From positions 1 to 61,675 of the forward strand of contig JAAXUC010000006.1 in the NCBI GenBank assembly GCA_013336225.1: a DNA stretch of 61,675 nucleotides, in the 5' to 3' direction. The notes under the pieces were generated by a model that ran no database searches, was not told the origin of the DNA, and was given only the letters and a program-made list of their open reading frames with translations. The position numbers were made by a program, and so were the translations under genes. Source of the DNA: Candidatus Moraniibacteriota bacterium (lineage in GTDB: Bacteria; Patescibacteriota; Minisyncoccia; Moranbacterales; GWC2-37-73). Shown piece after piece: positions 5,020 to 37,197 of the stretch; position 1 is the first letter of the stretch; each line of letters starts with the position of its first letter.

Positions 5020-5070
5020 AAAAGTGTAACCACTCAAATTGTCTTAGTATAAATGCAACTGATATATATC

Positions 5071-5099
5071 AAAAAAGACTTCGCGAAGAAGTCTTTTTT
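5071..5099. terminator. Bidirectional rho-independent terminator between convergent genes
   Basis: Sequence AAAAAAGACTTCGCGAAGAAGTCTTTTTT is a perfect 8-bp stem with an A-run on one side and a T-run on the other. It lies between the + gene ending at 5019 and the - gene ending at 5131. Confidence 0.8.
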
Positions 5100-5130
5100 G
5101 GTGACCGATTGTTGATTGCATGATGAATTG

Positions 5131-6663: not shown

Positions 6664-6694
6664 GATTTTGAAGCTAAAATAAAAAATTGAATTA

Positions 6695-9148: not shown

Positions 9149-10648
9149 TTAGTACATCAGCACTGCTACTGGTTGCATTTTGGCCACCACGTGAGCCACG
9201 CCGTTGGCTTCAACTCCCTTGATCACTTGATCAATGTTTTTGTAGCGAGCAGAATCTTGATTGATGACAATTGAAGACTGTGCGTTGTAGAGTCTGATGC
9301 CTTTTTCTTCCATCTTGGCGAACAACTCTTCTTTGCTGGCGATACTTTTTTCATTATTGTTCTTGCCTTTGCCAGTTCCGTGCGGAGCGGAAAAGAAACT
9401 TTGATCATTGCGGTCTGTGCCAACGCAAATGTAGGCATCGGTGCTCATGGAAGATGGAATGAAAGCTGGTTCGCCAGTTTCTTTGTAGATTGGATGATGA
9501 GACATTCTGCTTGGACCATAGGCGCGCGAGGTGTTGGAGCGATGAATCATGACTTCCTTGCCAAAATGCTCTTCGCGCGTGATGGAAATGTGGGGAAGAT
9601 CATAGATCAAATCCAGTTGAGGATCGCGTCCAAGAAGCTTTTTGATGGTTTCGGCGATGTTGTGCGTGATGACAGCTCGATTGGCTGTGCCGAAATTGGA
9701 AGCTGCTGCTCGCGCGTTCATATACATTTCTCCGTCTTCTCCGTTGGCATCATATTTGAGCAGCGTGTCATCTTTGGTCATGTGCATCCTTATTTTTTCT
9801 TGCATTTTTTCGTAGACAGCTTTTTTCTTGGAACTGAATGTCAGCTTGCCAAGCGCAACCATGAGTGCTTGTGAAAAATGTTCAGCTTTTTTGGCGGTGT
9901 GCGTATACATGGTGTATTGACCAAGGATTCCGCTGCCAGTGTGAATCATGAAAAGATATTGACCTTTCTTGATGCCCATTTTTTCTGCCATCACTGGATC
10001 TGCAATTTCACCAACTTTCATTAAATCAAGAAAATGATTTCCAGCCGCCCCGATGATTCCCAGGCGATATTTGGCAAAACCCAGATAGAGTTTTGGGATG
10101 ACATCGAAAATGTCTTGACGCGTCATTTCTTTTTCAAAAAAACTTCCTCCACACTGCGTGTTTTCCAATTCGTTCTTGGTCTGAATGTTCAAATGTTTGA
10201 TGATGGCTTTGGTGCCTTGGCGACAGATGTCCACCACCACAGAAAAGGGAACTGTTGTGCCGACGAATTTTTTGGTTGGCACAACTGCAACCAACTCCTG
10301 AAACAATCGGTGGATTTCTGCAGGCGTGATGTTGTCTTCATTTAGGCTGGTTTTAACCAAGCGCATTCCACAATTTGGATCGGAATCATTGACCTGTGGC
10401 AAGATATATTTTTCACTGGCGATGGTTGTGCCAGCCGCATTTTTTCTGCCTGGTTTTGAGCAGACATCTGGCATGGCAACTGTGCTGCGGAAAAAAGTGT
10501 CTTTATTTCCAGCAATGTCTTCAACTTGCGCAAAAGTTTCCTCCTCAGGCAAAAGATCCTGGCTCATGAAGAAAAGCGCTGGAACTGACATTTTGTCAGT
10601 TTTAAATTCTTTGATATCTTCGGATAGTGATTTTGTTTCGTAGGCCAT
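9149..10648 (-). CDS. rtcB: RNA 3'-phosphate/2',3'-cyclic phosphate ligase RtcB
   Basis: RtcB hallmark blocks are present: DPNCGMRL (D-x-N-C-G), GNHFLDL, HTGSGILG, HNIAE and PHGTGK (the position of the nucleotidylated His). Confidence 0.85.
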   Translation of the reverse strand: MAYETKSLSEDIKEFKTDKMSVPALFFMSQDLLPEEETFAQVEDIAGNKDTFFRSTVAMPDVCSKPGRKNAAGTTIASEKYILPQVNDSDPNCGMRLVKTSLNEDNITPAEIHRLFQELVAVVPTKKFVGTTVPFSVVVDICRQGTKAIIKHLNIQTKNELENTQCGGSFFEKEMTRQDIFDVIPKLYLGFAKYRLGIIGAAGNHFLDLMKVGEIADPVMAEKMGIKKGQYLFMIHTGSGILGQYTMYTHTAKKAEHFSQALMVALGKLTFSSKKKAVYEKMQEKIRMHMTKDDTLLKYDANGEDGEMYMNARAAASNFGTANRAVITHNIAETIKKLLGRDPQLDLIYDLPHISITREEHFGKEVMIHRSNTSRAYGPSRMSHHPIYKETGEPAFIPSSMSTDAYICVGTDRNDQSFFSAPHGTGKGKNNNEKSIASKEELFAKMEEKGIRLYNAQSSIVINQDSARYKNIDQVIKGVEANGVAHVVAKMQPVAVLMY

Positions 10649-28481: not shown

Positions 28482-29444
28482 CTATTGCAAGATGCTGCCG
28501 ATGAATTCAGGATATCCATTGATGAAATCTTTGGCGCTGGCTGTTTTTTTGCCTTCTCTTTGAATTTCCTTGAAAATGATGATGCCAGCGTTGGTCTGAA
28601 TTCCGATGTCATCTCCAAGCTGAAAGATTTCTCCAATCTGATGTTTTTCAATCGGGTTAATTTTTTGAAGTCCAATGGTGATCAATTTCAATCTGATGAT
28701 TTCCGAATCATTCTTCCAGTGCGTGAAAATTCCCGGCCAAGGAGTCAGGGCACGATATTTGTTGTAGATGGTTTCGGCGTCTTCTGTCCAAAATATCTTA
28801 CCATCTTCGCGTTCAATCAATTGGCACTGTGAAGCCTGGGTGTGATCTTGAGCTTTTGCTTCAATTTTTCTCTCAATCCAAAGAGGAATGGTTTTCAGCA
28901 AGAGAGCTGCGCCGCTGACTGACAATTTTTGCATCAAAGTTTCCGTGGTGTCATTTGGCGCAATGACTGTTTTTTCTTGCACCAAGATGTCTCCCGTGTC
29001 CACACCTTCATCCATCAGCATGATGGTGACACCTGTTTCTTTTTCTCCATTAAACAAAGCATTTTGAATGGGGGAGGGGCCGCGATATTTCGGCAAAAGT
29101 GAAACATGTACATTGATGCAGCCAAAACCAGGGATTGCCAAGGCTGCTTTGGGAATTATTTTGCCATAAGCTGCCACAATCACAAGGTCTGGTTTGAGTT
29201 TTTTAAATTCTTCCACCGCTTCAGCATTGAATCTTAGTGGTTGAAAAACCGGAATCTTTTTTTCTGTGGCCAGTTTTTTCACCAGCGGCTCAGTGATTTC
29301 TTGTTTGCGGCCAACTTTCATGTCAGGTTTGGTGAAAACGCCCACCACGTTATATTCACCATCAATAAGTGAACCAAGAATGACTTCCGACAAATCAGAA
29401 GTTCCCATAAAAACAACGCGCAGTTTTATTTTTTTTGTGTTCAT
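28482..29444 (-). CDS. fmt: Methionyl-tRNA formyltransferase
   Basis: VVFMGTS, NVHVSLLPKYRGPSPIQ.A. (the formyltransferase SLLP motif) and a C-terminal Fmt domain are present. The gene lies directly downstream of def. Confidence 0.9.
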   Translation of the reverse strand: MNTKKIKLRVVFMGTSDLSEVILGSLIDGEYNVVGVFTKPDMKVGRKQEITEPLVKKLATEKKIPVFQPLRFNAEAVEEFKKLKPDLVIVAAYGKIIPKAALAIPGFGCINVHVSLLPKYRGPSPIQNALFNGEKETGVTIMLMDEGVDTGDILVQEKTVIAPNDTTETLMQKLSVSGAALLLKTIPLWIERKIEAKAQDHTQASQCQLIEREDGKIFWTEDAETIYNKYRALTPWPGIFTHWKNDSEIIRLKLITIGLQKINPIEKHQIGEIFQLGDDIGIQTNAGIIIFKEIQREGKKTASAKDFINGYPEFIGSILQ

Positions 29445-29467
29445 CTTATTTTTTATATCACTATCTT

Positions 29468-29495
29468 GTCATTCCCGCGAAGGCGGGAATCCAGG
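29468..29495. repeat. GTCATTCC-type small hairpin repeat
   Basis: GTCATTCCCGCGAAGGCGGGAATCCAGG shares the 5' GTCATYC plus hairpin design seen at 45519, 45580, 51069 and 51123. Confidence 0.7.
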
Positions 29496-29502
29496 TTCGT
29501 CT

Positions 29503-29994
29503 TTAAATTTTTATAAGTGGGGTTTCCTTTTTTGGTTTCAGTGTGCGAGTCTTTTTAATTCTATCAATGATGAGCACGCCATCAAGATGATCCAATTCGT
29601 GCTGAATGGCTCTGGCCAGCAAATCGCGACCTTTCAATTTGGCAGGCTTGCCAAATTCATTCAGATAGCGCACTTGAACTTCACTGTAGCGAGAGATTGG
29701 AAAGAATTTCCCCGGAAAGCTGAGGCAGCCTTCTTCAGAAATGACTTTATTTTTTGACGTGGCTGTGATTTGGGGATTGATCATGACATATTGAGTTCCT
29801 TCTGTTTCAATCACGCACAAGCGCAAATTTGAGCCAACTTGTGTGGCAGCCAAGCCAACGCCATTGTTGGCATACATCGTTTCAATCATGGCCAAAACAA
29901 GCTCCTGCACGTCTTTGGCAAGAGGATCTTTCACTTTCACGGTCTTAACCCGCAAAGCAGGGTCTGGATTTTTTCGAATTTTCAGTGTAGTCAT
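29503..29994 (-). CDS. def: Peptide deformylase
   Basis: All three Def motifs are present: GVGLAATQVG, EGCLSFPG and HELDHLDG. Confidence 0.92.
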   Translation of the reverse strand: MTTLKIRKNPDPALRVKTVKVKDPLAKDVQELVLAMIETMYANNGVGLAATQVGSNLRLCVIETEGTQYVMINPQITATSKNKVISEEGCLSFPGKFFPISRYSEVQVRYLNEFGKPAKLKGRDLLARAIQHELDHLDGVLIIDRIKKTRTLKPKKETPLIKI

Positions 29995-29995
29995 A

Positions 29996-30859
29996 TTACA
30001 AGTCTAGCGGACTTTTGATGGTTTGTAAATTGGTATTTGCAACTTTTGTATAAATCTGGGTCGTTTCCAATTTGCTGTGTCCTAGCAGTTCCTGGATATA
30101 TCTAATGCTGGTGCCTGCCTCCAGCAGGTGAGTGGCAAAAGAATGCCTGAGAGTGTGGCAGGACACATTTTTTGTTATGCCTGACATTTCTGCGGATTTT
30201 TTGACAATCTTTCCAGCACTTTCAGCAGTCAGGTGACATTTTCCATCAGCGCCAGTGAAAAGATAATCACCAGGCTCTTTCAACGAAAGTTGTTTTGATA
30301 AAATTGGCACCAATTTTTCTGACAATAATGTGCAGCGGTCTTTATCGCCCTTGCCATGCCTCACCGTGATCATTTTTCTGTCCAAATCAAAATCGCGCAT
30401 CCTTATTTCCAATGCCTCGCTTACTCGCAGTCCTGCGGAATACATCAGGGAAATCAAAAAATGATGCTTGGGATTTTTTGTCACAAGAAGCATTTTTTCT
30501 ATTTCCTCTCTGCTGAGTATGGTGGGGAGATAGTTTGATTTTTTTGCTCCCTTGATATCAAAAAAGAATTTTCTCTTAAGGACTTGCCGATAATAAAATT
30601 TCAAAGCATTGAGCGCCACATTCAGGGTTGAATTGGCACAACCTTTATCTCGTATTGATTCCAGATAATTTTTGATATCATTATTGGTGACAGCTGTCGA
30701 ATTTTTGCCAATAAATTCCAAGAAAATCCTATTATAAAGCAAATATGACTCAATGGTTCTATGACTAAACCCTCTTATTTTCATTTCTCTCTCCAGGTTA
30801 TGCACAGAATCTCTATCAAGAGTGGTTGTCTTTGTATTTTTATGATAAAATGTATTCAT
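29996..30859 (-). CDS. Tyrosine recombinase, IntI/XerCD-clade, lacking the integron-integrase-specific insertion
   Basis: The N-terminal SAM-like motif is RGFSHRTIESYLLYNRIFLEF. Catalytic residues: R (AGLRVSE), K (HGKGDKDR), HxxR (HTLRHSFATHLL), H (LLGHS) and Y (QIYT). The C-terminus ends ..KSPLDL, as in IntI1 (..RSPLDAL, recalled from memory). The stop lies 1 nt from the def start codon. Confidence 0.85.
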   Translation of the reverse strand: MNTFYHKNTKTTTLDRDSVHNLEREMKIRGFSHRTIESYLLYNRIFLEFIGKNSTAVTNNDIKNYLESIRDKGCANSTLNVALNALKFYYRQVLKRKFFFDIKGAKKSNYLPTILSREEIEKMLLVTKNPKHHFLISLMYSAGLRVSEALEIRMRDFDLDRKMITVRHGKGDKDRCTLLSEKLVPILSKQLSLKEPGDYLFTGADGKCHLTAESAGKIVKKSAEMSGITKNVSCHTLRHSFATHLLEAGTSIRYIQELLGHSKLETTQIYTKVANTNLQTIKSPLDL

Positions 30860-30972
30860 AAGGCTCCATGCTTACATCAAAATTATATCATAATTCGTTG
30901 ATTAAGCCAAAAAAAACAACAGGTACGCATAAAAGGAGTTGATCTGAAATGTCGCTCCACTGCGTTCGCTCC

Positions 30973-31138
30973 ATTTCAAATCAACGCGCGCGCCTGACGG
31001 ACGCTGTCATCTTCCGTGTTGCTTCTCCCTTCGGTCGTGAGCAAACACATCAGATAACAGCGCCTATCCGAAATTTCCCTCAGAACCCTCTGGGATTCCT
31101 CGTGAAACATCGAATCAGGCGCGCGCGTTCAACGAAAT
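30973..31138. other. GC-rich, highly structured palindromic element (candidate recombination site or ncRNA)
   Basis: The closing stem is ATTTC..AACGCGCGCGCCTGA (30973-30997) paired with TCAGGCGCGCGCGTT..GAAAT (31115-31138). A nested hairpin CGCTGTCATCT..GTGTTGCT..C(TTCG)G..AGCAAACAC..AGATAACAGCG lies inside. The right end CGTTCAACGAAAT is identical to the right core of site S4 (35679-35691). Confidence 0.6.
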
Positions 31139-31277
31139 AAATTTTTTATCTTGGTGAATATTTAAAGTTTTGTGAATTGAATAGGGGCAGAAAATTTGCT
31201 TTTTTATTTATTTAAAGAGGGTGATAAGGAGTTTTTCTGCTCTTTGGGGAGCAGAAAAAATTAGCTCATAAAAACAA

Positions 31278-31320
31278 AAGCCGCCCGATTGGATTTCCCA
31301 ATACAAGGCGGCTTACTTTT
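31278..31320 (-). terminator. Rho-independent terminator for the gene at 31334-31768
   Basis: On the minus strand, AAGCCGCC..(loop)..GGCGGCTT is followed by TTGTTTTT. Confidence 0.7.
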
Positions 31321-31333
31321 TTGCTAATATTCC

Positions 31334-31768
31334 TTAACTGTTTTTTAGATCATTCCATCCGCGTCCCTCTGTTGTTTGGACGTTGAATGGTTTTTTTGCA
31401 ATTTCAGTTGGAACAAGAAAAGAGAAATATTTTCCAGTGTCTTCGAACACTTTGGCATATTCTTTCCTGTCATCACCAATCCAGAAGAGCAATCTGACAT
31501 TTTGGTTCTTATCAAGCATTGCTTGATTTGTCGGCTGACCCTTTATGACCTCTTTGCTGATTATGATAAGCTGATTCTTGCCCATATCAATAACGATGGG
31601 CTCCCGCATGTCTTCTCTGTATATCTTGTTCAACTCTCTAAGCTTGGAGTTTGTCATCTCCATGTGAGCCATTTCCGAATCCATATACATGAAGACGAAT
31701 AGGGCAGGAAAACATCCAACAACCAGCACGACGAGAATTGCTCCAATGATTCCAGATATTTTTTTCAT
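31334..31768 (-). CDS. Membrane-anchored hypothetical protein (cassette 1)
   Basis: The start MKKISGIIGAILVVLVVG is preceded by CAGGAGGATGTT. There is one TM helix and a soluble domain. I see no recognisable family. Confidence 0.6.
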   Translation of the reverse strand: MKKISGIIGAILVVLVVGCFPALFVFMYMDSEMAHMEMTNSKLRELNKIYREDMREPIVIDMGKNQLIIISKEVIKGQPTNQAMLDKNQNVRLLFWIGDDRKEYAKVFEDTGKYFSFLVPTEIAKKPFNVQTTEGRGWNDLKNS

Positions 31769-32032
31769 AACATCCTCCTGAGGTTCTAGTCCTCCGACTA
31801 TGATTTTTTTAAACAACTGAGTCCTTAACTAACCATATATTATACTCCCATTTTGCTAATTTGTCAATGGTTTTGATACCCATCGACATTTGGGGCTAAA
31901 ACAAGCCACAAATAAGGAGTCTTTTTTCAAAGAAATTCACCCCAACCCTCTTTCTTTGAAAAAAGACAAAAATTAAATTTTCTTATACGATAAATCAGTG
32001 TATAATGAATTTAACAACGAGATAAAAAATTG

Positions 32033-32172
32033 ACATCGTTGAACAACTCATATCTGGCTCAAGAAATTGACGCATTAATAGTTCAGAAGAAAATCAATTT
32101 CTTTCGACCCAAATTTTTGTGCAATTATATTGCGCAAAAACTTCAGATACACAGATACGTTGTACAAAATAT
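32033..32172. repeat. attC-like structured site S0 (short variant)
   Basis: ACATCGTTGAACAACTCATATCTGG ... CTTCAGATACACAGATACGTTGTACAAAAT. The inner hairpins are GAAATTGA/TCAATTTC and AAATTTTTGTGCAA/TTGCGCAAAAACTT. The junction CGACCCAAATTT is shared with S2-S5. Confidence 0.7.
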
Positions 32173-32354
32173 TGCCATGTAGTAATTGGGTTGGTGATTT
32201 TTAAAAAGCGAATTGTAATTCAATCGATGGTGCGTTGATAAAGTTAGTAATGGCAATACTGTCGTACAACACGCGATATGAGGCTGCATGGAAAAGAAAA
32301 TCCCAAATATTTTTTCTTTATAAGCACAGCCATTTTTTGGAATTTTTTAAGCAC

Positions 32355-32392
32355 AAAAAACCCACTCCGAAGTTTTGGAGTGGGTAGCGAGT
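32355..32392 (-). terminator. Rho-independent terminator for the 39-aa ORF
   Basis: On the minus strand, CCCACTCC-AAAACTTC-GGAGTGGG is followed by TTTTTTG. Confidence 0.75.
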
Positions 32393-32410
32393 TTGGCGGA
32401 AATGTTTTGA

Positions 32411-32530
32411 TTAACCTCCACCTAACAAAGTTGCGATTGTACCTACTACAGCAACACACATAATTGCTGCTACTGCATAAAACACGATGATGAGAACTAA
32501 TACATTTTCCGGTGATATTTTTATCAACAT
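32411..32530 (-). CDS. 39-aa hydrophobic micro-protein (cassette 2)
   Basis: CAGGAGGTTGAA precedes the ATG. Translation is MLIKISPENVLVLIIVFYAVAAIMCVAVVGTIATLLGGG, followed by a strong terminator. It is below the ORF-track cutoff. Confidence 0.55.
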   Translation of the reverse strand: MLIKISPENVLVLIIVFYAVAAIMCVAVVGTIATLLGGG

Positions 32531-32774
32531 TTCAACCTCCTGATTGAGTGGATTTTGTATATTACTCTAATTTGAGTACTTTTCATATTAGCACATTATG
32601 AATGAAATGTCAAATATTCATGGGGCAAAAATTCCAAAAAATGGCTAAAATAAGGAAAATATTTGGGATTTTCTTTTCCATTTCGCCCAAATTCAGCCCC
32701 TTCTGCTGGTGACTGAACAAACGTTGGCAATTTCCAATAGTTCGTGAGATAATTTAAATATCAGTGATTTAAAC

Positions 32775-32814
32775 GGGACTGAACTTCTCATATCGCGAAA
32801 CGTTCTGCGAAATT
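32775..32814. repeat. attC-like half-site S1 (right arm only)
   Basis: GGGACTGAACTTCTCATATCGCGAAACGTTCTGCGAAATT matches the right arms of S2-S5. The left half is degenerate or absent. Confidence 0.6.
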
Positions 32815-32852
32815 GCAAGACAACCTAACTAATTTAATTCCATTTTTTTCTT

Positions 32853-33158
32853 ATGAAATTTGAAAAACTAGTAAGGGATAATATTCCCGACATTATTAAA
32901 AAAGATGGTAAAGAGCCGATTACTCGTATTGTGGAGGGCAAAGAGTACGAGGAGGCTTTGACGCGAAAATTGCACGAAGAGGTTGGTGAGTTTTTAGAAA
33001 ATCCATGTGTAGAAGAGGCTGCTGATATTTTAGAAGTTTTGCATGCAATTTGCGCTCTGAAGGGTGAGGATTTAAAAACGCTGGAGGATGTTCGCCAGAA
33101 AAAAATGGAAGAACGTGGAGGTTTCAAGCAAGGGATATTTCTAGATAGTGCGGAGTAA
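32853..33158 (+). CDS. MazG-like nucleoside triphosphate pyrophosphohydrolase (small all-alpha type), cassette 3
   Basis: 101 aa. KLVRD.IP.II and EE..E..E......E.AD..EV are the E-x-x-E / E-x-x-D metal motifs of the MazG/HisE-like family. Confidence 0.7.
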   Translation: MKFEKLVRDNIPDIIKKDGKEPITRIVEGKEYEEALTRKLHEEVGEFLENPCVEEAADILEVLHAICALKGEDLKTLEDVRQKKMEERGGFKQGIFLDSAE

Positions 33159-33177
33159 TATTGAGAGGTTGTCTTGC

Positions 33178-33423
33178 AACATCGCAGAACACCAAATATC
33201 TGGCTCCAAAATTTTTCATTTATTAGAAATAGCAAGGAGTGAAAAATTTTCTCGACCCAAATTTCGCACTTTTCCGCTTAGTGATAACATATAGTATAAT
33301 TAGTTTAACAAAATAATCTAAATATCCAGGTTTTTAGCTTTAAAACCAAAGTGCGAAACTTCAGATATTTGGAAACGTTCTGCGAAATTCCATTTTTAAA
33401 AGAAATAATTTTTTGTTTTTTTG
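33178..33423. repeat. attC-like structured site S2
   Basis: The core runs from AACATCGCAGAAC (33178-33190) to GTTCTGCGAAATT (33377-33389). The inner hairpins are AAAATTTTTCA/TGAAAAATTTT and AAATTTCGCACTTT/AAAGTGCGAAACTT. The outer right arm is CCATTTTTAAAAGAAATAATTTTTTGTTTTTTT. Confidence 0.8.
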
Positions 33424-33454
33424 AAAATGAAAAGCCTACTCCGAAGAATAGGCT
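33421..33454 (-). terminator. Rho-independent terminator for the gene at 33477-33734
   Basis: On the minus strand, AGCCTATTCTTCGGAGTAGGCT is followed by TTTCATTTTC. Confidence 0.7.
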
Positions 33455-33476
33455 GTGTGTTTTTCGAAAGTGATTG

Positions 33477-33734
33477 TTAGCAATGTGCCCAGCAATCATT
33501 TTCTGTATCATAGTACCAACCGAGTTTTGCCATCTGGAGCACATCTTCTTCGGGCATTTGCATGACAGTTTTGTCAAAATCGCTTGCCCAAATGATGTCG
33601 TGATCAAATTGTGGCATAACATTTTCCTCGTATTTTGCGAGGATTTGAAGCCCATGCATAACTGTGTTTTTCTCTCCGATCATGCTACTGATGTCCATTT
33701 TTTCAATGATTTCCTTTGCTTTGTCAATGTCCAT
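33477..33734 (-). CDS. 85-aa acidic hypothetical protein (cassette 4)
   Basis: AAGGAGGGACTT precedes the ATG. The gene has its own consensus promoter and terminator. I see no recognisable family. Confidence 0.65.
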   Translation of the reverse strand: MDIDKAKEIIEKMDISSMIGEKNTVMHGLQILAKYEENVMPQFDHDIIWASDFDKTVMQMPEEDVLQMAKLGWYYDTENDCWAHC

Positions 33735-33781
33735 AAGTCCCTCCTTGTGAGCGATATTTGTGCCATTTATAGCAACAGTAC

Positions 33782-33810
33782 AGTATAGCAGAAAATAGAG
33801 CTTATGTCAA
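33782..33810 (-). promoter_or_regulatory. Near-consensus sigma70 promoter for the cassette-4 gene
   Basis: On the minus strand: TTGACA (33810-33805), a 17-nt spacer and TATACT (33787-33782). Confidence 0.7.
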
Positions 33811-33823
33811 GGGGCGCAGGTAA

Positions 33824-34835
33824 TGTCTACATACATATGGCGGTTTTCACAAGATAGCAGTATCTTGGAGGATGAGTATACATATGCCAACAACAATTAG
33901 AGAGGAGAGACTCCGATGGGTTGTTCCCATCTATCAGAAGGAGCTCAAACTAAAAGATGTAGCCAAAATGTGCCCTCACAGTAAGAGGAGCTTGGAGCGC
34001 TGGGTTGCTGCATACAAAAAGTATGGAGCAAGAGCCTTGGAACCAAAATCTACACGTCCCAAGAGCCATCCTAAAGAAACTGAGATCAGAATTAAAGAGA
34101 GAGTTATTGAACTGCGAAAGAAAACTAGAAAATGCGCCATAAAATTAAAATGGCAATTAGACAAAGAAGGTATTAATCTTCATAGAAATACCGTTCACAA
34201 AATTATCAAGAAAGAAAGATTAGTTAGAAAATATAGGATCAGAAAATTGAAATACAAATATGTTAAAGTGCCCCTGAGTCCAGGAGAGTTAGTTGAGATA
34301 GATGTAAAATATGTGCCAGAAAAGCTAGGAAACAAGCAGTATTATCAATTCACAGCCATAGACTGCTCTACGAGATGGAGGTATTTAGAAATATATGAGG
34401 ATTGCACAAATCACAGCTCGATAAAGTTTTTGGAAAAAGTGCTAAGAGTTGCACCATTTAGAATACGAGCTATTAAAACTGACAATGGAAGTAATTTCAC
34501 TAATAGATATACGGGGTATGATAAAAGCAGTGATCCTTTGAATCCAAGACTGCATGATCTAGATCTGATGTGTCAAAGTAGAAATGTCATTCACTATCTC
34601 ATTGATTCAGGCAAGCCCGCTCAGAATGGAAAAGTTGAAAGGAGCCACAGATCAGATCAGGAAATTTTCTATGATAGAAATAGGTTTAAGAATGTGGCTG
34701 ATTTAAAGAAGAAGATTAGGATGTGGAATAAGTATTACAATAACCTGGAACACTGCGGTTTAAATGGTAAAACTCCAAACGAAATGCTAGAATTATTAAC
34801 AATCCAAAAACCGACAAATGTATGTGTTTAAAACA
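33824..34835 (+). mobile_element. IS481-family insertion sequence (approximate ends)
   Basis: A single DDE (rve) transposase ORF is present. The imperfect terminal inverted repeats are TGTCTACATACATATGGCGG (left) and CCGACAAATGTATGTGTTTAAAACA (right). It lies between the cassette-4 promoter and site S3. Confidence 0.65.
33872..34831 (+). CDS. IS481-family DDE transposase (integrase core domain)
   Basis: An N-terminal HTH is present (..AKMCPHSKRSLERWV.AYKKYG..AL). DDE catalytic core: first D in VEIDVKYV; second in IKTDNGSNF; third region PAQNGKVERSHRS. Confidence 0.85.
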   Translation: MSIHMPTTIREERLRWVVPIYQKELKLKDVAKMCPHSKRSLERWVAAYKKYGARALEPKSTRPKSHPKETEIRIKERVIELRKKTRKCAIKLKWQLDKEGINLHRNTVHKIIKKERLVRKYRIRKLKYKYVKVPLSPGELVEIDVKYVPEKLGNKQYYQFTAIDCSTRWRYLEIYEDCTNHSSIKFLEKVLRVAPFRIRAIKTDNGSNFTNRYTGYDKSSDPLNPRLHDLDLMCQSRNVIHYLIDSGKPAQNGKVERSHRSDQEIFYDRNRFKNVADLKKKIRMWNKYYNNLEHCGLNGKTPNEMLELLTIQKPTNVCV

Positions 34836-34837
34836 CG

Positions 34838-35072
34838 CAAAAAACAAAAAATTATTTCTTTTGGGCTCAAAAAATGGAACATCGCAGAACACCGAATATG
34901 AGGTTCACCCCGATTTCACTTTTAAAAAATAAATTAAGGAATATCGGGACTCAACCCAAATTTTTGCCCTTTTTCTCTATTGATATATAATAAGGAAGCG
35001 GACAAAAACTTCTCATATTCGGATACGTTCTGCGAAATTCCATTTTTAAAAGAAATATTTTTTTGTTTTTTT
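34838..35072. repeat. attC-like structured site S3 (canonical copy, about 235 bp with about 65-bp inverted arms)
   Basis: The core runs from AACATCGCAGAAC (34878-34890) to GTTCTGCGAAATT (35027-35039). L-boxes are CGAATATGAG / CTCATATTCG. Hairpin H1 is CCCGAT/ATCGGG. A promoter-like TTGCCC-16-TATAAT sits in the H2 loop. Confidence 0.85.
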
Positions 35073-35078
35073 AGGCAA

Positions 35079-35113
35079 GAAAAAAGCCCAGCAAGCCAAT
35101 AGGCAAGATGGGC
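35079..35113 (-). terminator. Rho-independent terminator for the gene at 35144-35419
   Basis: On the minus strand, GCCCA..(loop)..TGGGC is followed by TTTTTTC. Confidence 0.6.
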
Positions 35114-35143
35114 ACACATTTCGTAATAAAGAGAAAAGTGTTA

Positions 35144-35419
35144 TTAACTAAATTCAGAAATTAAAAGAGCAATTTTGGCTTTCTGTTCCTGATTCAGACC
35201 TAGTTCCTCATTAAAACGCTTGAGTTCGGTTGTTATTGCCCCAAGGTCTTTTTCTGGCAACTCCATGCTTGCAAGAAGACCAAGCATGCATCTGATGATA
35301 ACAAACCTGGCTGTCGAAGTAATTGGATTACCGTCCGCATACTTGTTGCAAGCATTTCGAATTTCAGCCAAAATAAGCTCGTGGGCCGGTTTTTTATCTT
35401 TTCCCTCTGTCTGACTCAT
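35144..35419 (-). CDS. 91-aa hypothetical protein (cassette 5)
   Basis: CAGGAGGTGCTCA precedes the ATG. An upstream minus-strand promoter reads TTGACT (35486-35481), 17 nt, TAATGT (35463-35458). I see no recognisable family. Confidence 0.65.
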   Translation of the reverse strand: MSQTEGKDKKPAHELILAEIRNACNKYADGNPITSTARFVIIRCMLGLLASMELPEKDLGAITTELKRFNEELGLNQEQKAKIALLISEFS

Positions 35420-35490
35420 TGAGCACCTCCTGAGTATTTGTCGCTAATCGACTTTGCACATTACCATGTTAAAAACAGGCAGTCAAGTAG

Positions 35491-35726
35491 AGCAAAAAAC
35501 AAAAAATATTTCTTTTGGGCTCAAAAAATGGAATATCGCAGAACACCGAATATGAGGTTCAAAAAATTTGCACAATTTATATCAACAAGGAAAGCAAATT
35601 TTTCTCAACCCAAATTTTTGCCCTTTTCTTCTATTGATATATAATAAGGAAGCGGACAAAAACTTCTCATACTCGGAAACGTTCAACGAAATTCCATTTT
35701 TAAAAGAAATAATTTTTTGTTATTTT
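35491..35726. repeat. attC-like structured site S4
   Basis: The core runs from AATATCGCAGAAC (35531-35543) to GTTCAACGAAATT (35680-35692). H1 is replaced by the unrelated but still complementary pair AAAAATTTGC/GCAAATTTTT. The promoter-like TTGCCC-16-TATAAT is at 35617-35644. Confidence 0.85.
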
Positions 35727-35797
35727 TGGGAAAAGAAAAAGACTCGCGGAAATACGAGCCTTAATTTAGGAAATGGTTCTTTCCCCCGATTCAAATT

Positions 35798-35965
35798 TTA
35801 AAAATATGGAGTTAATATTGATAGAAGAACTCCGCCAACGACCAAGGAGCCTAAAAAATACCAAGGCTGGGATGGTGTCCATGTTCCCAATATTGCTGTT
35901 AAACCTACAAGGAAAGAACCAGTGAGGAAGCTTATTGTCATCTGAATAAGATATCTTTTCTCCAT
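35798..35965 (-). CDS. 55-aa two-TM micro-protein (cassette 6)
   Basis: AAAGGAGGACGTT precedes the ATG. Translation is MEKRYLIQMTISFLTGSFLVGLTAILGTWTPSQPWYFLGSLVVGGVLLSILTPYF. This is a different frame from the tracked ORF 35766..36029, which lacks an SD. A terminator hairpin GGCTCG..CGAGTC plus a T-run lies downstream. Confidence 0.55.
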   Translation of the reverse strand: MEKRYLIQMTISFLTGSFLVGLTAILGTWTPSQPWYFLGSLVVGGVLLSILTPYF

Positions 35966-36062
35966 AACGTCCTCCTTTTATAGAGTGTAGTGTCCTAGCG
36001 AGATTACTAGACATTAAACAGTAGCACACTTTATGCCGCTGTCAATAGTACAACCAAATTAT

Positions 36063-36268
36063 GAAAAAATAACAAAAAATTATTTCTTTTGGGCTCAAAA
36101 AATGGAACATCGCAGAACACCTAATATGAGGTTCATCCCGATTTCACTTTTTAATGTAAATCAAGGAGTATCGGGACTAAACCCAAATTTTTGCCCTTTT
36201 CTTCTATTGATATATAATAGGGAAGCGGACAAAAACTTCTCATATTCGGATACGTTATATGAAATACT
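36063..36268. repeat. attC-like structured site S5 (last copy; right arm degenerates after the GTT)
   Basis: AACATCGCAGAAC lies at 36106-36118. H1 is CCCGAT/ATCGGG. The promoter-like TTGCCC-16-TATAAT is at 36191-36218. The right side reads GGATACGTT then ATATGAAATA instead of CTGCGAAATT. Confidence 0.8.
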
Positions 36269-36366: not shown

Positions 36367-37197
36367 ATGCAAAATCCAAACGATCAAATCGCCATCTTTA
36401 GGGGAAAATCAATCAGAAAAATCATTTTTCAAAAGGAATGGTGGTTTTCTGTGGTTGATGTTTGTGGAATACTTACAGATAGTCCTGATTCAGGAGCTTA
36501 TTGGCGGAAGCTTAAACAAAGGCTTAACGAGGAAGGAAGTGAAGTCGTGACATTTTGTCACGGGTTGAAATTGGAGGCTCCAGACGGCAAAATGCGTGAA
36601 ACTGATTGCGCCAATACTGAAGGAATGTTTCGCATAATTCAGTCAGTCCCATCGCCCAAAGCCGAGCCATTAAAGAGATGGCTGGCTAAAGTCGGCTATG
36701 AACGTATTCAAGAAGTGGAAAATCCAGAACTTGCGAGCAAAAGAACGAGATTATTGTATAAACTTAAGGGTTATCCTGAAGAATGGATTGAAATGCGAAT
36801 GAGAGGCATTGCAATCCGTGAAGAATTGACTGACGAATGGCAAAAAAGAGGCGCGAAATACAAAGATGATTACGAGATTTTAACCGCAGAAATATCCGAA
36901 GCCACTTTTGGGATAAAGCCAAATGAATATAAAAAAGTAAAAGGTTTGAAAAATGAAAATCTTCGTGACCACATGGATGACTTCGAACTCATCTTGACCA
37001 TGCTTGGCGAACGAACCACTAAAGAAATTCACAAAACCAACGACTCAAAAGGGTTACCTAGACTTAAGGATGATGCTCGAAAAGGTGGTGCGGTTGCAGG
37101 CACAGCCAGAAAACAAATCGAAAGACAAATAGGCAGGCCGATTGTTTCAGAAAAGAATTTTCTGAGATCTAGTGGTAGGAAGAAAATTAAGAATTGA
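36367..37197 (+). CDS. Bro-N domain protein (antirepressor/DinD-like)
   Basis: The N-terminus F.GK.IR......EWWFSVVDVCGIL is the Bro-N fold signature. The C-terminal helical part resembles DNA-damage-inducible DinD-type proteins. Confidence 0.6.
   Translation: MQNPNDQIAIFRGKSIRKIIFQKEWWFSVVDVCGILTDSPDSGAYWRKLKQRLNEEGSEVVTFCHGLKLEAPDGKMRETDCANTEGMFRIIQSVPSPKAEPLKRWLAKVGYERIQEVENPELASKRTRLLYKLKGYPEEWIEMRMRGIAIREELTDEWQKRGAKYKDDYEILTAEISEATFGIKPNEYKKVKGLKNENLRDHMDDFELILTMLGERTTKEIHKTNDSKGLPRLKDDARKGGAVAGTARKQIERQIGRPIVSEKNFLRSSGRKKIKN

What the first reader, a model, noticed from the sequence alone, without database searches (positions are those of the whole stretch)
32033..36268. Site architecture is conserved by compensatory changes, not by sequence (two inner hairpins plus a fixed ACCCAAATTT junction)
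All full sites share one fold. The outer arms pair, then hairpin H1, then a conserved single-stranded junction (C)(G/A)ACCCAAATTT, then hairpin H2.

H1 sequences are unrelated between copies but always self-complementary:
- S0: AGAAATTGA/TCAATTTCT
- S2: AAAATTTTTCA/TGAAAAATTTT
- S3 and S5: CCCGAT/ATCGGG
- S4: AAAAATTTGC/GCAAATTTTT

H2 keeps its base AAATTT.../...AAACTT, including the same A-C mismatch at position 3, while its interior covaries:
- S0: TTGTGCAA/TTGCGCAA
- S2: CGCACTTT/AAAGTGCG
- S3-S5: TTGCCC/GCGGACAA

Covariation of this kind implies selection on a folded single-stranded nucleic acid. That molecule could be a ssDNA recombination substrate, as in attC, or a transcribed RNA.
Basis: seen in the sequence. 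Interest (0 to 1): 0.7.

Follow-up and report, generated by a model that had tools for sequence, protein, structure and literature searches.

The report
Integron-like gene-cassette array in Patescibacteria
The repeated folded sites are the recombination sites of an integron-like gene-cassette array in an ultra-small (Patescibacteria) bacterium, run by a recombinase that lacks the hallmark domain of integron integrases, so it looks like an undescribed sister or precursor form of the integron.

Summary
Every site folds into outer stem, hairpin H1, CCCAAAT junction and hairpin H2.

A covariance model found 100 such sites in the window plus 79 related Patescibacteria loci. All lie upstream of, and on the strand opposite to, one tyrosine recombinase gene. 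Covariation is strong: 87.7% of cells paired against 66% when shuffled, with 620 double changes against 202.

The sites behave like integron attC sites:
- The 4 nt after GTT of site n pair with the 4 nt before AAC of site n+1, not with their own site.
- Two strains with identical recombinases lose synteny exactly at AC|GTT.
- A conserved 11-6-11 dif-like duplex site (attI analogue) sits 56-78 nt upstream of the recombinase gene.
- The bottom strand folds more stably in 89 of 100 sites.

When folded, each site rebuilds that dif-like core. Both arms read ACWTC opposite GAAAT with a conserved C·A mismatch, which is G·T on the bottom strand. H1 branches off one arm and H2 extends it.

The recombinase is closest to VchIntIA but lacks the roughly 42-residue IntI-specific insertion.

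The system works like an integron but fails integron membership. No published description was found.

The parts
29996..30859 (-). Tyrosine recombinase gene (287 aa), related to IntI and XerA but without the IntI-specific insertion. It is divergent from the cassette array and is followed by def and fmt.
   Evidence: Pfam gives Phage_integrase plus SAM_4. NCBIfam XerA_Arch scores 227.9 against a cut-off of 220, while integron integrase TIGR02249 scores 225.7, below its cut-off of 265, in two stretches. The best PDB sequence and fold match is VchIntIA 2a3v, with 13 residues where VchIntIA has 55. The AF2 model has no helix at residues 194-211.
30922..30950 (+). attI-type, dif-like duplex site GGTACGCATAAAAGGA-GTT-GATCT-GAAAT. 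This is the proposed insertion point for cassettes; GTT is at 30938-30940.
   Evidence: The same site (consensus aaGTTCGyATATAACTtGTT-nnnn-GAAAT) lies 56-78 nt upstream of the recombinase start codon in at least 40 related loci. By eye, its nnnn is complementary to the R'' nnnn of the first hairpin site in most of the roughly 18 loci printed in full, with one mismatch in L014 and in the window.
30951..30972 (+). 'Empty' 22-nt GC-rich cassette body between attI and the first hairpin site.
   Evidence: Read directly from the sequence. The same arrangement occurs in L049 and L083.
30973..31138 (+). Site Sm1, a GC-rich variant of the hairpin site. R'' is ATTTCAAATCAAC, the L arms are GCGCGCGCCTGA/TCAGGCGCGCGC, and R' is GTTCAACGAAAT.
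   Evidence: The bottom-strand DNA fold is -44.3 kcal/mol with z = -8.2. The 3' part is a CM hit at 31047-31138. A homologous element is present in L083 and a same-type GC-rich site in L049.
31139..32032 (-). Cassette 1 body, carrying a 160-aa ORF (31334-31816, minus strand) with its own promoter-like TTGACA/TATAAT. It is bracketed by an imperfect inverted repeat of about 95 nt.
   Evidence: ORF list; inverted repeats I3, I11 and I12; no Pfam or NCBIfam hit. The cassette ends, but not the body, are conserved in other loci.
32033..32170 (+). Site S0. R'' is ACATCGTTGAAC, followed by L'', H1 (AGAAATTGA/TCAATTTCT), CCCAAAT, H2 and L'. R' is GTTGTACAAAAT.
   Evidence: CM hit of 43.8 bits, fold, sequence.
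32171..32257 (+). Non-coding mini-cassette between S0 and S1. R' GTTGTACAAAATATTGCCAT pairs with ATGGCAATACTGTCGTACAAC.
   Evidence: Read from the sequence; coordinates.
32258..32813 (+). Site S1, a complete site. Its H1 (32288-32681) is a long hairpin with 26-nt and 20-nt perfect arms that encloses a gene: a promoter-like TTGACA, a 39-aa hydrophobic ORF at about 32411-32530 on the minus strand, and a hairpin plus T-run.
   Evidence: Inverted repeats I2 and I14 are 100% complementary. L'' ACGCGATATGAGG pairs with L' CTTCTCATATCGCG. The ORF and H1 ends are shown. The same gene-in-H1 layout occurs in at least 12 sites of other loci.
32814..33178 (+). Cassette 3 body with a 101-aa ORF (32853-33158, plus strand), bracketed by a 25-nt inverted repeat.
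   Evidence: Inverted repeat I9 is 92% complementary; ORF list; no family hit.
33179..33388 (+). Site S2. H1 is AAAATTTTTCA/TGAAAAATTTT, and H2 is long (CGCACTTT ... AAAGTGCG, with a loop of about 90 nt).
   Evidence: The bottom-strand fold is -36.8 kcal/mol with z = -7.3. It is homologous to sites in L005, L009 and L014.
33389..34878 (-). Cassette 4 body, carrying an 85-aa ORF (33477-33734, minus strand) and an inserted IS (about 33830-34832; transposase 33872-34831, plus strand).
   Evidence: ORFs; rve, HTH_32 and HTH_28 domains; flanking inverted repeat I4 is 100% complementary over 24 nt.
34879..35038 (+). Site S3. H1 is CCCGAT/ATCGGG and the H2 arms are TTTTTGCCC/GCGGACAAAAA.
   Evidence: CM hit of 60.6 bits; bottom-strand fold -30.1 against top-strand -27.3 kcal/mol.
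35039..35532 (-). Cassette 5 body with a 91-aa ORF (35144-35419, minus strand).
   Evidence: ORF list; flanking inverted repeats I13 and I17; no family hit.
35533..35692 (+). Site S4. H1 is AAAAATTTGC/GCAAATTTTT.
   Evidence: CM hit of 55.6 bits; bottom-strand fold -25.5 against top-strand -16.9 kcal/mol.
35693..36106 (-). Cassette 6 body with a 55-aa ORF (35798-35965, minus strand).
   Evidence: ORF list; flanking inverted repeat I1 is 100% complementary over 26 nt.
36107..36265 (+). Site S5, the last site. Its R' GTTATATGAAAT joins non-cassette DNA and is presumably the displaced right half of the original attI.
   Evidence: CM hit of 58.1 bits. No further site lies downstream in the window. 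The origin of the R' half is an inference.

Best explanation
The sites are the cassette-associated recombination sites (attC analogues) of an integron-like platform found across Patescibacteria.

Platform layout:
- a tyrosine recombinase gene (29996-30859, minus strand);
- a double-stranded 11-6-11 dif-like site about 65-90 nt upstream of its start codon (30922-30950), which is the attI analogue;
- an array of single-gene cassettes, each ending in one hairpin site.

How each site is built. On a single strand, most likely the bottom strand, each site folds so that it rebuilds the dif-like core.
- Arm R is ACATC-nnnn-AAC paired with GTT-nnnn-GAAAT.
- The central region is partly unpaired, with 3 extra nt on one strand.
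- Arm L is ACTTC-nn-ATAT... paired with ...ATAT-nn-G then AAAT.
- Both arms therefore present ACWTC opposite GAAAT with a conserved C·A mismatch, which is a G·T wobble on the bottom strand.
- H1 is a hairpin branch that interrupts the G|AAAT strand of arm L.
- H2 is the helix that continues beyond arm L.
- Because only the arms are read by sequence, H1, H2 and the inner L stem are free to change as long as they stay paired. This explains the compensatory changes.

Proposed reaction. Two recombinase monomers bind the folded site and two bind attI. One strand is exchanged at or next to G|TT, and replication resolves the intermediate, as in integrons and CTX phage. Cassettes are thereby inserted at attI and excised by site-by-site recombination.

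What is shown: the anatomy, the covariation, the polarity, the hybrid boundaries, the strain-level breakpoint, the attI conservation and the strand asymmetry.

What is inferred: binding stoichiometry, single-strand exchange, replicative resolution and the exact cleavage bond.
For: Distribution:
- A CM built from 11 short sites finds 100 sites in 1.0 Mb. All are on the strand opposite the recombinase gene and upstream of it, and none lies in the downstream flanks.

Covariation:
- In the CM alignment, 87.7% of cells are paired against 66.3% shuffled, with 620 double changes against 202. By helix, 10 of 11 L-stem pairs, 8 of 9 H2 pairs and 6 of 6 H1 pairs change on both sides.
- The result is reproduced on a MAFFT-only alignment and by RNAalifold.

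Cassette signature:
- The nnnn after GTT of site n against the nnnn before AAC of site n+1 is 3.19 of 4 complementary on average (23 of 47 perfect). The own-site value is 1.67 and random pairs give 1.81.
- The next 12 nt outward are 7.7 of 12 complementary for adjacent pairs (30 of 62 reach at least 10). The own-site value is 3.9 and other loci give 3.6.

Strain comparison:
- Two strains with identical recombinases (L080, L083) are 99% identical through four cassettes. They diverge exactly after ...AC of a site. The next cassette in L083 carries GAT...ATC in place of GTT...AAC, a compensatory change.

attI site:
- It is conserved in at least 40 loci at a fixed distance from the gene. Its nnnn matches the first cassette's R''. 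Its register equals that of the reverse complement of the 5' half of the hairpin sites.

Strand asymmetry:
- The bottom strand is more stable than the top in 89 of 100 sites, with a median difference of -2.5 kcal/mol.
- The third H2 pair is A·C on the top strand in 96 of 97 sites. Other mismatches are A·C or C·A in 97 cells against G·T in 55.

Cassettes:
- The median inter-site spacer is about 595 nt. ORFs are on the top strand in 44 of 53 cassettes, often filling 80-95% of the spacer. Cargo is diverse.

Recombinase:
- The best sequence and fold match is the integron integrase VchIntIA.
Against: - No experiment or read-level evidence of excised circles was available. Recombination is inferred from comparative anatomy.
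- The recombinase lacks the I2 insertion that integron integrases use to handle folded attC sites, so the mechanism cannot simply be copied from integrons.
- In this window most cassette ORFs are antisense. They have their own promoter-like TTGACA/TATAAT motifs and hairpin plus T-run ends, and three cassettes share terminal inverted repeats of about 45 nt, which is unlike the rest of the family.
- The CM alignment is fitted to the structure, which inflates pairing somewhat. The MAFFT-only control and the slid controls limit this concern.
- The roles of H1 and H2 are unexplained, as is the presence of whole genes inside H1.
Confidence: 0.8

Rival explanations
1. The recombinase is the organism's housekeeping Xer and the adjacent 28-bp site is the chromosomal dif. 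On this reading the array is a pile-up of tiny Xer-exploiting elements (IMEX) that integrate CTX-phage-style as folded single strands. It is not a dedicated integron-like system.
For: - The site has 11-6-11 dif architecture and, from memory of the E. coli sequence, resembles E. coli dif.
- The recombinase has no I2 insertion and passes the XerA model cut-off.
- Empty platforms (gene plus site, no cassettes) exist in L010 and L046.
- The gene sits directly upstream of def-fmt, possibly in one operon, in the window, L001, L003 and L028.
- Single-recombinase Xer systems such as XerS/difSL keep the site beside the gene (from memory).
Against: - GC skew has the same sign on both sides of the platform in the window and in 11 Patescibacteria loci, so the site is not at a terminus-like skew switch.
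- The genomic context differs between lineages. L028 has def at 84% identity but a recombinase at only 49% identity in the same locus, which suggests replacement rather than vertical descent.
- The best PDB match is IntI, not XerC or XerD.
Confidence: 0.15
2. The sites are a structured RNA, such as a terminator, insulator, processing site or sRNA, transcribed with the cassettes. On this reading the covariation reflects RNA function and recombination is incidental.
For: - The sites fold strongly with RNA parameters, z = -3.4 to -8.3.
- TATAAT-like and AAGGA motifs are enriched on the top strand in the loops.
Against: - No Rfam family matches, even at E up to 1.
- The more stable strand is the bottom one in 89 of 100 sites, and the invariant mismatch is A·C on the strand that is sense for most cassette ORFs.
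- An RNA role does not explain the hybrid nnnn boundaries, the cassette-specific flanking repeats, the breakpoint at AC|GTT, or the duplex attI copy of the same motifs.
Confidence: 0.03
3. Each cassette is an invertible segment, as in a shufflon or fim-type switch. Double-stranded recombination between the inverted dif-like half-sites that flank each cassette would flip the gene. Hairpin folding would be irrelevant.
For: - Every cassette is bracketed by inverted R arms.
- ORF orientation is mixed, 44 sense to 9 antisense, and mostly antisense in the window.
- Weak NCBIfam hits to tyrosine-type DNA invertases, E about 1e-12.
Against: - Inversion would need matching central regions between L' of site n and L'' of site n+1. 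Where read, these are unrelated, for example S2 L' against S3 L''; this was not measured across the family.
- L'' covaries with L' of the same site across H1 and H2, which inversion does not require.
- The strains differ by cassette content, not by orientation.
Confidence: 0.04
4. The sites are selfish palindromic repeats of the MITE or REP/BIME type. They would have accumulated in one intergenic hotspot, and any link to the recombinase would be accidental.
For: They are AT-rich imperfect palindromes of 100-230 nt, repeated in tandem between genes.
Against: - None occurs elsewhere in the 61.7-kb window or in the downstream flanks of 79 loci. All 100 have one orientation relative to the recombinase gene.
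- No target-site duplications or transposase partner were seen.
- The boundary signature and the attI site point to site-specific recombination.
Confidence: 0.02

Closest known systems
Integrons (IntI integrase, attI, attC-bounded cassettes; for example the Vibrio cholerae chromosomal integron with VchIntIA)
   Same: - A divergent integrase gene, an adjacent duplex attI, and then an array of mostly single-gene cassettes, each ending in an imperfect palindrome R''-L''...L'-R' with conserved AAC/GTT.
- Many R' boxes are the canonical GTTAGGC, GTTAGAC or GTTAAAC.
- The crossover is at or next to G|TT, so each R' is a hybrid.
- The bottom strand is the better folder.
- The inner part of the site is variable and kept only as structure.
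- The recombinase is the closest solved-structure relative of VchIntIA.
   Different: - The recombinase is 285-290 aa and lacks the IntI-specific insertion of about 42 residues (the I2 helix).
- The sites are 94-210 nt, rising to about 560 nt when H1 carries a gene. They are three-way junctions rather than a stem with extrahelical bases.
- Both arms carry sequence motifs (ACWTC/GAAAT) and mimic the attI duplex.
- The R stem extends at least 12 bp into cassette-specific flanks.
- The host is Patescibacteria. No report of integrons there was found in the searched library.
CTX-phage-type IMEX integration (folded (+)ssDNA attP recombined with dif by XerCD)
   Same: - A Xer-type recombinase without I2.
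- A folded single strand whose stem imitates the duplex dif site with an imperfect central region.
- A forked hairpin of roughly 150 nt.
- Escudero et al. 2016 (PMC4792948) describe exactly these traits for CTX phage and speculate that IMEX elements were ancestors of integron cassettes.
   Different: - The mobile units here are single genes, not phages.
- They form ordered arrays beside the recombinase gene.
- The target site is not at a GC-skew switch.
- The recombinase is a single IntI/XerA-like protein rather than a XerC plus XerD pair.
Single-recombinase Xer modules (archaeal XerA/dif, XerS/difSL, XerH/difH)
   Same: - One recombinase.
- It passes the NCBIfam XerA model.
- A pseudo-palindromic core site lies immediately beside the gene. 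That adjacency in XerS/difSL is recalled from memory.
   Different: Those systems resolve chromosome dimers at the terminus and have no cassette arrays or hairpin sites.
Acinetobacter pdif modules (genes flanked by XerC/D sites on plasmids)
   Same: Small gene modules bounded by Xer-type sites are thought to move by Xer recombination (PMC7399989, abstract as listed).
   Different: The pdif sites are simple 28-bp duplex sites in alternating orientation. They are not folded three-way junctions, and there is no dedicated adjacent recombinase or polar array.

Membership tests
Integron | The integrase carries the IntI-specific additional domain (I2 alpha-helix around patch III). | tested here: not met
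   The alignment to VchIntIA has query residues 194-208 opposite chain residues 184-240, so 13 residues stand where VchIntIA has 55. TIGR02249 scores 225.7 against a cut-off of 265, in two stretches. The AF2 model has no helix at residues 194-211. Almost all listed full-length homologues are 283-290 aa; a few are longer.
Integron | The integrase belongs to the IntI/Xer branch of simple tyrosine recombinases and has the catalytic residues. | tested here: met
   The best PDB sequence hit (164.5 bits) and best Foldseek hit (E = 5e-17, 30% identity) are both 2a3v IntI4. R145, K170, H235, R238, H261 and Y270 are invariant in the family alignment.
Integron | attC is an imperfect palindrome R''-L''...L'-R' with conserved AAC...GTT and structure rather than sequence conserved in between. 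| tested here: met
   AAC/GTT pairs hold in 90-96 of about 97 sites. The L, H1 and H2 helices covary.
Integron | The cassette boundary lies inside R' (G|TT), so sequence 3' of GTT pairs with the R'' of the next site. | tested here: met
   Adjacent sites are 3.19 of 4 complementary against 1.67 for own-site pairs. Flanks are 7.7 of 12 complementary against 3.9. The strain breakpoint falls at AC|GTT.
Integron | A duplex attI sits next to intI, and the array points away from the integrase gene. | tested here: met
   The conserved site lies 56-78 nt upstream of the start codon in at least 40 loci. All 100 sites are upstream and in one orientation.
Integron | Extrahelical bases in the L box and an attC length of about 57-141 nt (figures recalled from the literature). 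| tested here: not met
   The L stem is 92% paired with no conserved bulged base. The irregularities are instead a 3-nt excess in the central spacer, conserved C·A mismatches in both arms, and the H1 branch. Site lengths are 94-210 nt, or about 560 nt with a gene in H1.
Integron | The bottom strand is the recombinogenic, better-folding strand. | tested here: inconclusive
   The bottom strand is more stable in 89 of 100 sites, and the invariant mismatch is G·T on the bottom strand. This is a folding preference only; which strand actually recombines was not testable.
Integron | Recombination activity, meaning excision as circles and insertion at attI. | not testable with these tools
   This needs an assay or read-level data. 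It is only inferred from array differences between strains.
Xer/dif chromosome-dimer resolution and IMEX | A core site with 11-bp arms, a 6-8-bp centre and pseudo-palindromic arms. | tested here: met
   The consensus is aaGTTCGyATAT-AACTtG-TTnnnnGAAAT. The arms are inverted-repeat related at the conserved positions, read directly from the consensus. Similarity to E. coli dif is from memory.
Xer/dif chromosome-dimer resolution and IMEX | dif lies at the replication terminus, at a GC-skew switch. | tested here: not met
   GC skew has the same sign on both sides of the platform in the window and in 11 loci.
Xer/dif chromosome-dimer resolution and IMEX | The integrating element is a folded ssDNA whose stem mimics duplex dif, as in CTX phage attP(+). 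| tested here: met
   The folded site reproduces both arms and the spacing of the attI duplex. That it acts as ssDNA is an inference.
Rfam RNA families | A match to a curated covariance model. | tested here: not met
   Only three chance-level hits appeared at E up to 1, and none fell on a site.

The most novel reading that the evidence does not exclude
Patescibacteria carry a widespread, previously undescribed lineage of integron-like platforms. The integrase is an I2-less relative of IntI and XerA, the attI is a dif-like site, and the cassette sites fold into a full mimic of that site.

This would be a living example of the Xer/IMEX-to-integron intermediate that Escudero et al. (2016) proposed only as a speculation. 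It has an extra twist: hairpin H1 of the site is a second cargo slot that can hold a whole gene.
Probability: 0.6. Interest if true: 0.9.

Novelty: new variant of a known kind. Interest (0 to 1): 0.85.

Why it matters
Integrons are the main known platform for capturing and shuffling single genes. Their origin from Xer-type recombinases, and the step from double-stranded to folded single-stranded substrates, is currently explained by acquisition of the I2 helix (PMC4792948, PMC7790495).

A cassette array with attC-like folded sites served by an IntI-like enzyme without I2 would matter in four ways:
- It would show that folded-site cassette recombination does not require I2.
- It would give a concrete candidate for the ancestral or parallel state.
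- It would extend integron-like gene capture to the Candidate Phyla Radiation, whose small genomes are thought to depend on accessory genes for host interaction.
- Because it fails the integrase criterion that defines integrons (the I2-containing domain), surveys that apply that criterion would presumably not report it (inferred; IntegronFinder was not run). Cassette metagenomics may therefore be undercounting a whole class of cassettes.

Tried and rejected
- Rfam scan of 29-38 kb at a permissive threshold returned nothing relevant.
A first Python fold timed out. Folding was redone.
It was replaced by a 108-position model built from short sites. That model misses S1 and S2 of the window because of their large inserts.
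- RNAalifold on the MAFFT alignment recovered only the L stem, because H1 and H2 vary in length.
- The idea that the site is the chromosomal dif at the terminus was rejected as the leading reading because there is no GC-skew switch.
- Conserved xer-def-fmt synteny as a sign of a housekeeping gene held in only 3 loci.
- A consistent orientation of the array relative to replication was not found; the skew sign is mixed among loci.
- An SD-like AAGGA motif in the loops was tested as a ribosome-binding site, but in the sites read no start codon follows it. It is left unexplained.
- Nine literature searches found no description of this system. Absence from this library is not proof of novelty.
- Pfam and NCBIfam scans on the window's cassette proteins gave no hits apart from the IS transposase.

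Full report
**1. Observation**

- Sites S0, S2, S3, S4 and S5 each have paired outer arms, a self-complementary H1 of unrelated sequence, the motif (C)(G/A)ACCCAAATTT, and an H2. The H2 base AAATTT/AAACTT carries an A·C mismatch.
- ACCCAAATTT occurs five times exactly, only on the + strand and only here.
- With DNA parameters every site folds into the same three-way junction, with z = -2.7 to -8.2 against dinucleotide shuffles.

Three corrections are needed.
- AAAT(T) of the 'junction' is the 5' strand of the H2 base, so the junction is not fully single-stranded.
- S1 is not partial. Its arms lie at 32258-32287 and 32782-32813, and its H1 is a stem of about 60 bp (I2 and I14) around a complete small gene.
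- The array begins further left, with a GC-rich site at 30973-31138 and a non-hairpin site at 30922-30950.

**2. Surroundings**

- Immediately left of the array, on the minus strand, lies a 287-aa tyrosine recombinase gene (29996-30859), followed by def and fmt. To the right lie a Bro-N gene and priA.
- The recombinase's homologues are almost all from Patescibacteria (Moranbacteria, Parcubacteria, Falkowbacteria) and are 283-290 aa long.
- Seventy-nine related loci were fetched.

**3. The family of sites**

- Simple pattern scans showed the same architecture in dozens of these loci.
- A covariance model built from 11 short sites found 100 sites at E ≤ 0.01 in 1.0 Mb.
- Every site lies on the strand opposite the recombinase gene and upstream of it. 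None lies in the downstream flanks or elsewhere in the 61.7-kb window.
- Among Patescibacteria-type loci with at least 3 kb of upstream sequence, 24 of 27 have at least one site. The distant archaeal, Omnitrophota and Bacillales homologue loci have none.

**4. Covariation**

| Alignment | Cells paired | Shuffled | Double-change cells (observed / shuffled) | Slid controls |
|---|---|---|---|---|
| CM alignment, 99 distinct sites | 87.7% | 66.3% (0 of 500 shuffles reach it) | 620 / 202 | 26-48% |
| MAFFT-only, 18 sites | 86.4% | 71.1% | 97 / 34 | 23-46% |

- Changes on both sides occur in 10 of 11 L-stem pairs, 8 of 9 H2 pairs and 6 of 6 H1 pairs.
- RNAalifold independently finds the L stem, with 7 of 12 pairs compensatory.
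- Per site, the H1 and H2 segments fold better than their shuffles, with median z about -2.0 to -2.6.

**5. Evidence that these are recombination sites of cassettes**

*Hybrid boundaries*
- The four variable bases after GTT of site n are complementary to the four before AAC of site n+1: mean 3.19 of 4, with 23 of 47 perfect.
- They are not complementary to those of their own site (1.67) or of random sites (1.81).
- The next 12 nt outward behave the same way: 7.7 of 12 for adjacent pairs, against 3.9 for own-site and 3.6 for other loci.
- This is the signature of integron cassettes, where the crossover in R' makes each R' a hybrid.

*Strain comparison*
- Two assemblies with the identical recombinase protein (L080, L083) are 99% identical from the gene through four cassettes.
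- They become unrelated exactly after the ...AC that precedes GTT of a site.
- In L083 the next, empty cassette has GAT...ATC in place of GTT...AAC. This is a compensatory change in the otherwise invariant triplets.

*Content and cargo*
- Only the sites, the cassette ends and the recombinase-proximal region are shared between the window's array and other loci. The cassette bodies are not.
- The median inter-site spacer is about 595 nt. ORFs lie on the top strand in 44 of 53 cassettes, often filling 80-95% of the spacer.
- Cargo in L080 includes PQ-loop, HAD hydrolase and methyltransferase genes.

**6. The attI analogue**

- A conserved sequence, aaGTTCGyATATAACTtGTT-nnnn-GAAAT, lies 56-78 nt upstream of the recombinase start codon in at least 40 loci. 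The window copy is at 30922-30950.
- It is not a hairpin. It reads as an 11-6-11 pseudo-palindrome like a dif site. From memory of E. coli dif (GGTGCGCATAA TGTATA TTATGTTAAAT), 16 of 22 arm positions agree.
- Its nnnn matches the R'' of the first hairpin site in most of the roughly 18 loci read by eye, with one mismatch in L014 and in the window.
- Empty platforms, with gene plus site and no cassette, exist in L010 and L046.

**7. What the fold is for**

This section is inference from the logos and the pair counts.
- The top strand carries ACWTC twice: as ACATC-nnnn-AAC at the 5' end and as ACTTC-nn-ATAT in the 3' half.
- After folding, these lie on opposite strands of one long stem, each facing GAAAT. 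In arm R this is the GAAAT that follows GTT-nnnn. In arm L it is the G after L'' plus the AAAT of the 'junction'.
- Both arms therefore have the same conserved C·A mismatch, which is a G·T wobble on the bottom strand.
- The 5' half has the same spacing as attI, while the 3' half has 3 extra nt in the central region.
- The folded site is thus a copy of the attI/dif-like core. H1 is a branch interrupting one strand of arm L, and H2 is the helix beyond arm L.
- This explains why CCCAAAT and AACTTC are invariant while H1, H2 and the inner L stem are conserved only as pairing.

**8. Which strand folds**

- The bottom strand is more stable than the top in 89 of 100 sites, with a median difference of -2.5 kcal/mol.
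- The third H2 pair is A·C on the top strand in 96 of 97 sites.
- Among the other mismatches, A·C or C·A (97 cells) outnumber G·T (55 cells).
- Most family ORFs are on the top strand, so a sense-RNA role is unlikely. A bottom-strand ssDNA substrate, as in integrons, fits better.

**9. The recombinase**

- NCBIfam passes the XerA model (227.9 against a cut-off of 220) and fails the integron integrase model (225.7 against 265, in two stretches).
- The best PDB sequence hit is VchIntIA. The query has 13 residues where VchIntIA has 55.
- An AF2 model (pLDDT 83) has no helix in that segment, and its best fold match is again VchIntIA, followed by archaeal XerA.
- The enzyme is therefore IntI-like but lacks the I2-bearing insertion that defines integron integrases (PMC9668308; PMC8138268; PMC4792948).

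**10. Dedicated system or the cell's Xer/dif?**

- GC skew keeps its sign across the platform in the window and in 11 loci.
- The genomic context varies. L028 has def at 84% identity to the window's but a recombinase at only 49% identity.
- These points favour a dedicated platform, but a dual role is not excluded (about 15%).

**11. Rivals considered**

- *Structured RNA:* weak, for the reasons in section 8 and because no Rfam family matches.
- *Invertible cassettes:* this would need L' of site n to match L'' of site n+1. Where read in the window it does not (S2 L' against S3 L''). Instead L'' covaries with its own L'.
- *MITE or REP-like repeats:* this does not explain the strict polarity and confinement.
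- *Canonical integron:* this fails the I2, extrahelical-base and length criteria.

**12. Comparison and novelty**

- The system works like an integron, with an attI, attC-like folded sites, a G|TT crossover and polar cassette arrays. It resembles CTX phage integration in that the folded site mimics a duplex dif-like site and the enzyme has no I2.
- Escudero et al. proposed such an IMEX/Xer-like stage as a speculative ancestor of integrons.
- Nine full-text searches found no description of integron-like arrays in Patescibacteria. Smyshlyaev et al. only list a 'Cand' subgroup of Xer-related recombinases.
- I classify it as a new variant of a known kind.

**13. Unexplained**

- The purpose of H1, and why it can hold a whole gene. 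This occurs in window S1 and in at least 12 sites elsewhere, with stems of 22-37 bp and loops of 300-670 nt containing ORFs.
- The GC-rich site type, conserved at sequence level, that follows 'empty' cassettes.
- The AAGGA and TATAAT motifs in the loops.
- The window's unusual antisense cassettes, which carry their own promoter-like TTGACA/TATAAT motifs and hairpin plus T-run ends and share terminal repeats of about 45 nt.

Noticed in passing
window 32288-32681 (H1 of site S1); also L002:542-1056, L009:8506-9339 and 3488-3998, L028:3717-4324, L045:6090-6574 and 3213-3765, L051:3041-3539, L055:2304-2821, L062:122-552, L074:799-1519 and 120-566: Hairpin H1 can be a stem of 22-37 bp whose loop of 300-670 nt holds a whole ORF of 39-177 aa, often with hydrophobic N-termini suggesting secreted or membrane proteins. 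The site itself therefore carries cargo, which I do not know from integron attC sites.
   Followed up: partly
window 30951-31138; L083 ~6750-6960; L049 ~9700-9890; L052:3647-3747, 5446-5546, 6230-6330, 7138-7238; L051:720-820, 1377-1477: A GC-rich variant of the site (L arms GCGCGCGC...) is conserved at sequence level between distant genomes. It usually follows an 'empty' 13-25-nt GC-rich cassette. It is the first site after attI in the window and in L049, and it is repeated four times in L052.
   Followed up: partly
window ~33830-34832: An IS with an rve-family transposase (ORF 33872-34831, plus strand) and roughly 19-nt imperfect terminal inverted repeats, read by eye, is inserted inside cassette 4, next to that cassette's small minus-strand gene.
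   Followed up: partly
window 31139-36106 (cassette bodies): In this window five of six coding cassettes have the ORF antisense to the site orientation, each with its own TTGACA/TATAAT-like promoter and a hairpin plus T-run terminator. Three cassettes share terminal repeats of about 45 nt (GTTCTGCGAAATTCCATTTTTAAAAGAAATAATTTTTTGTT...). In the wider family 44 of 53 cassette ORFs are sense and nearly fill the cassette.
   Followed up: partly
H1 and H2 loops of sites in the window and loci (e.g. window 34937-34945, 34988-35003, 33289-33300): AAGGA(R) sits at the 3' end of the H1 and H2 loops on the top strand (35 of 100 sites against 11 on the bottom strand). TATAAT-like hexamers occur in long H2 loops (24 against 14). 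These may be promoters or other signals for the downstream cassette. In the sites read, no start codon follows the AAGGA.
   Followed up: partly
L028 (recombinase 4452-5261, def 5374-5829, fmt 5987-6946) against window 28482-30859: The xer-def-fmt context is the same. Def is 84% and Fmt 78% identical to the window's proteins, but the recombinase is only 49% identical. This suggests that the recombinase, or the whole platform, was replaced at a conserved locus.
   Followed up: no
L004, L007, L008, L012, L017, L018, L020-L023, L025 and others: In many assemblies the contig ends within about 250 nt upstream of the recombinase gene. This is where the repeat-rich, strain-variable array would begin, so arrays are probably under-assembled in metagenome bins.
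   Followed up: no
L083 ~6900-6960 (top-strand reading): An empty cassette has GAT...ATC where all other cassettes have GTT...AAC. This is a compensatory change in the otherwise invariant crossover triplets.
   Followed up: no
window 36367-37197 and L024:18954-19821: The Bro-N domain gene just beyond the last site has a 72%-identical protein (70% at the DNA level) in L024. There it lies about 9 kb on the other side of the recombinase, so it is not part of a conserved array flank.
   Followed up: no
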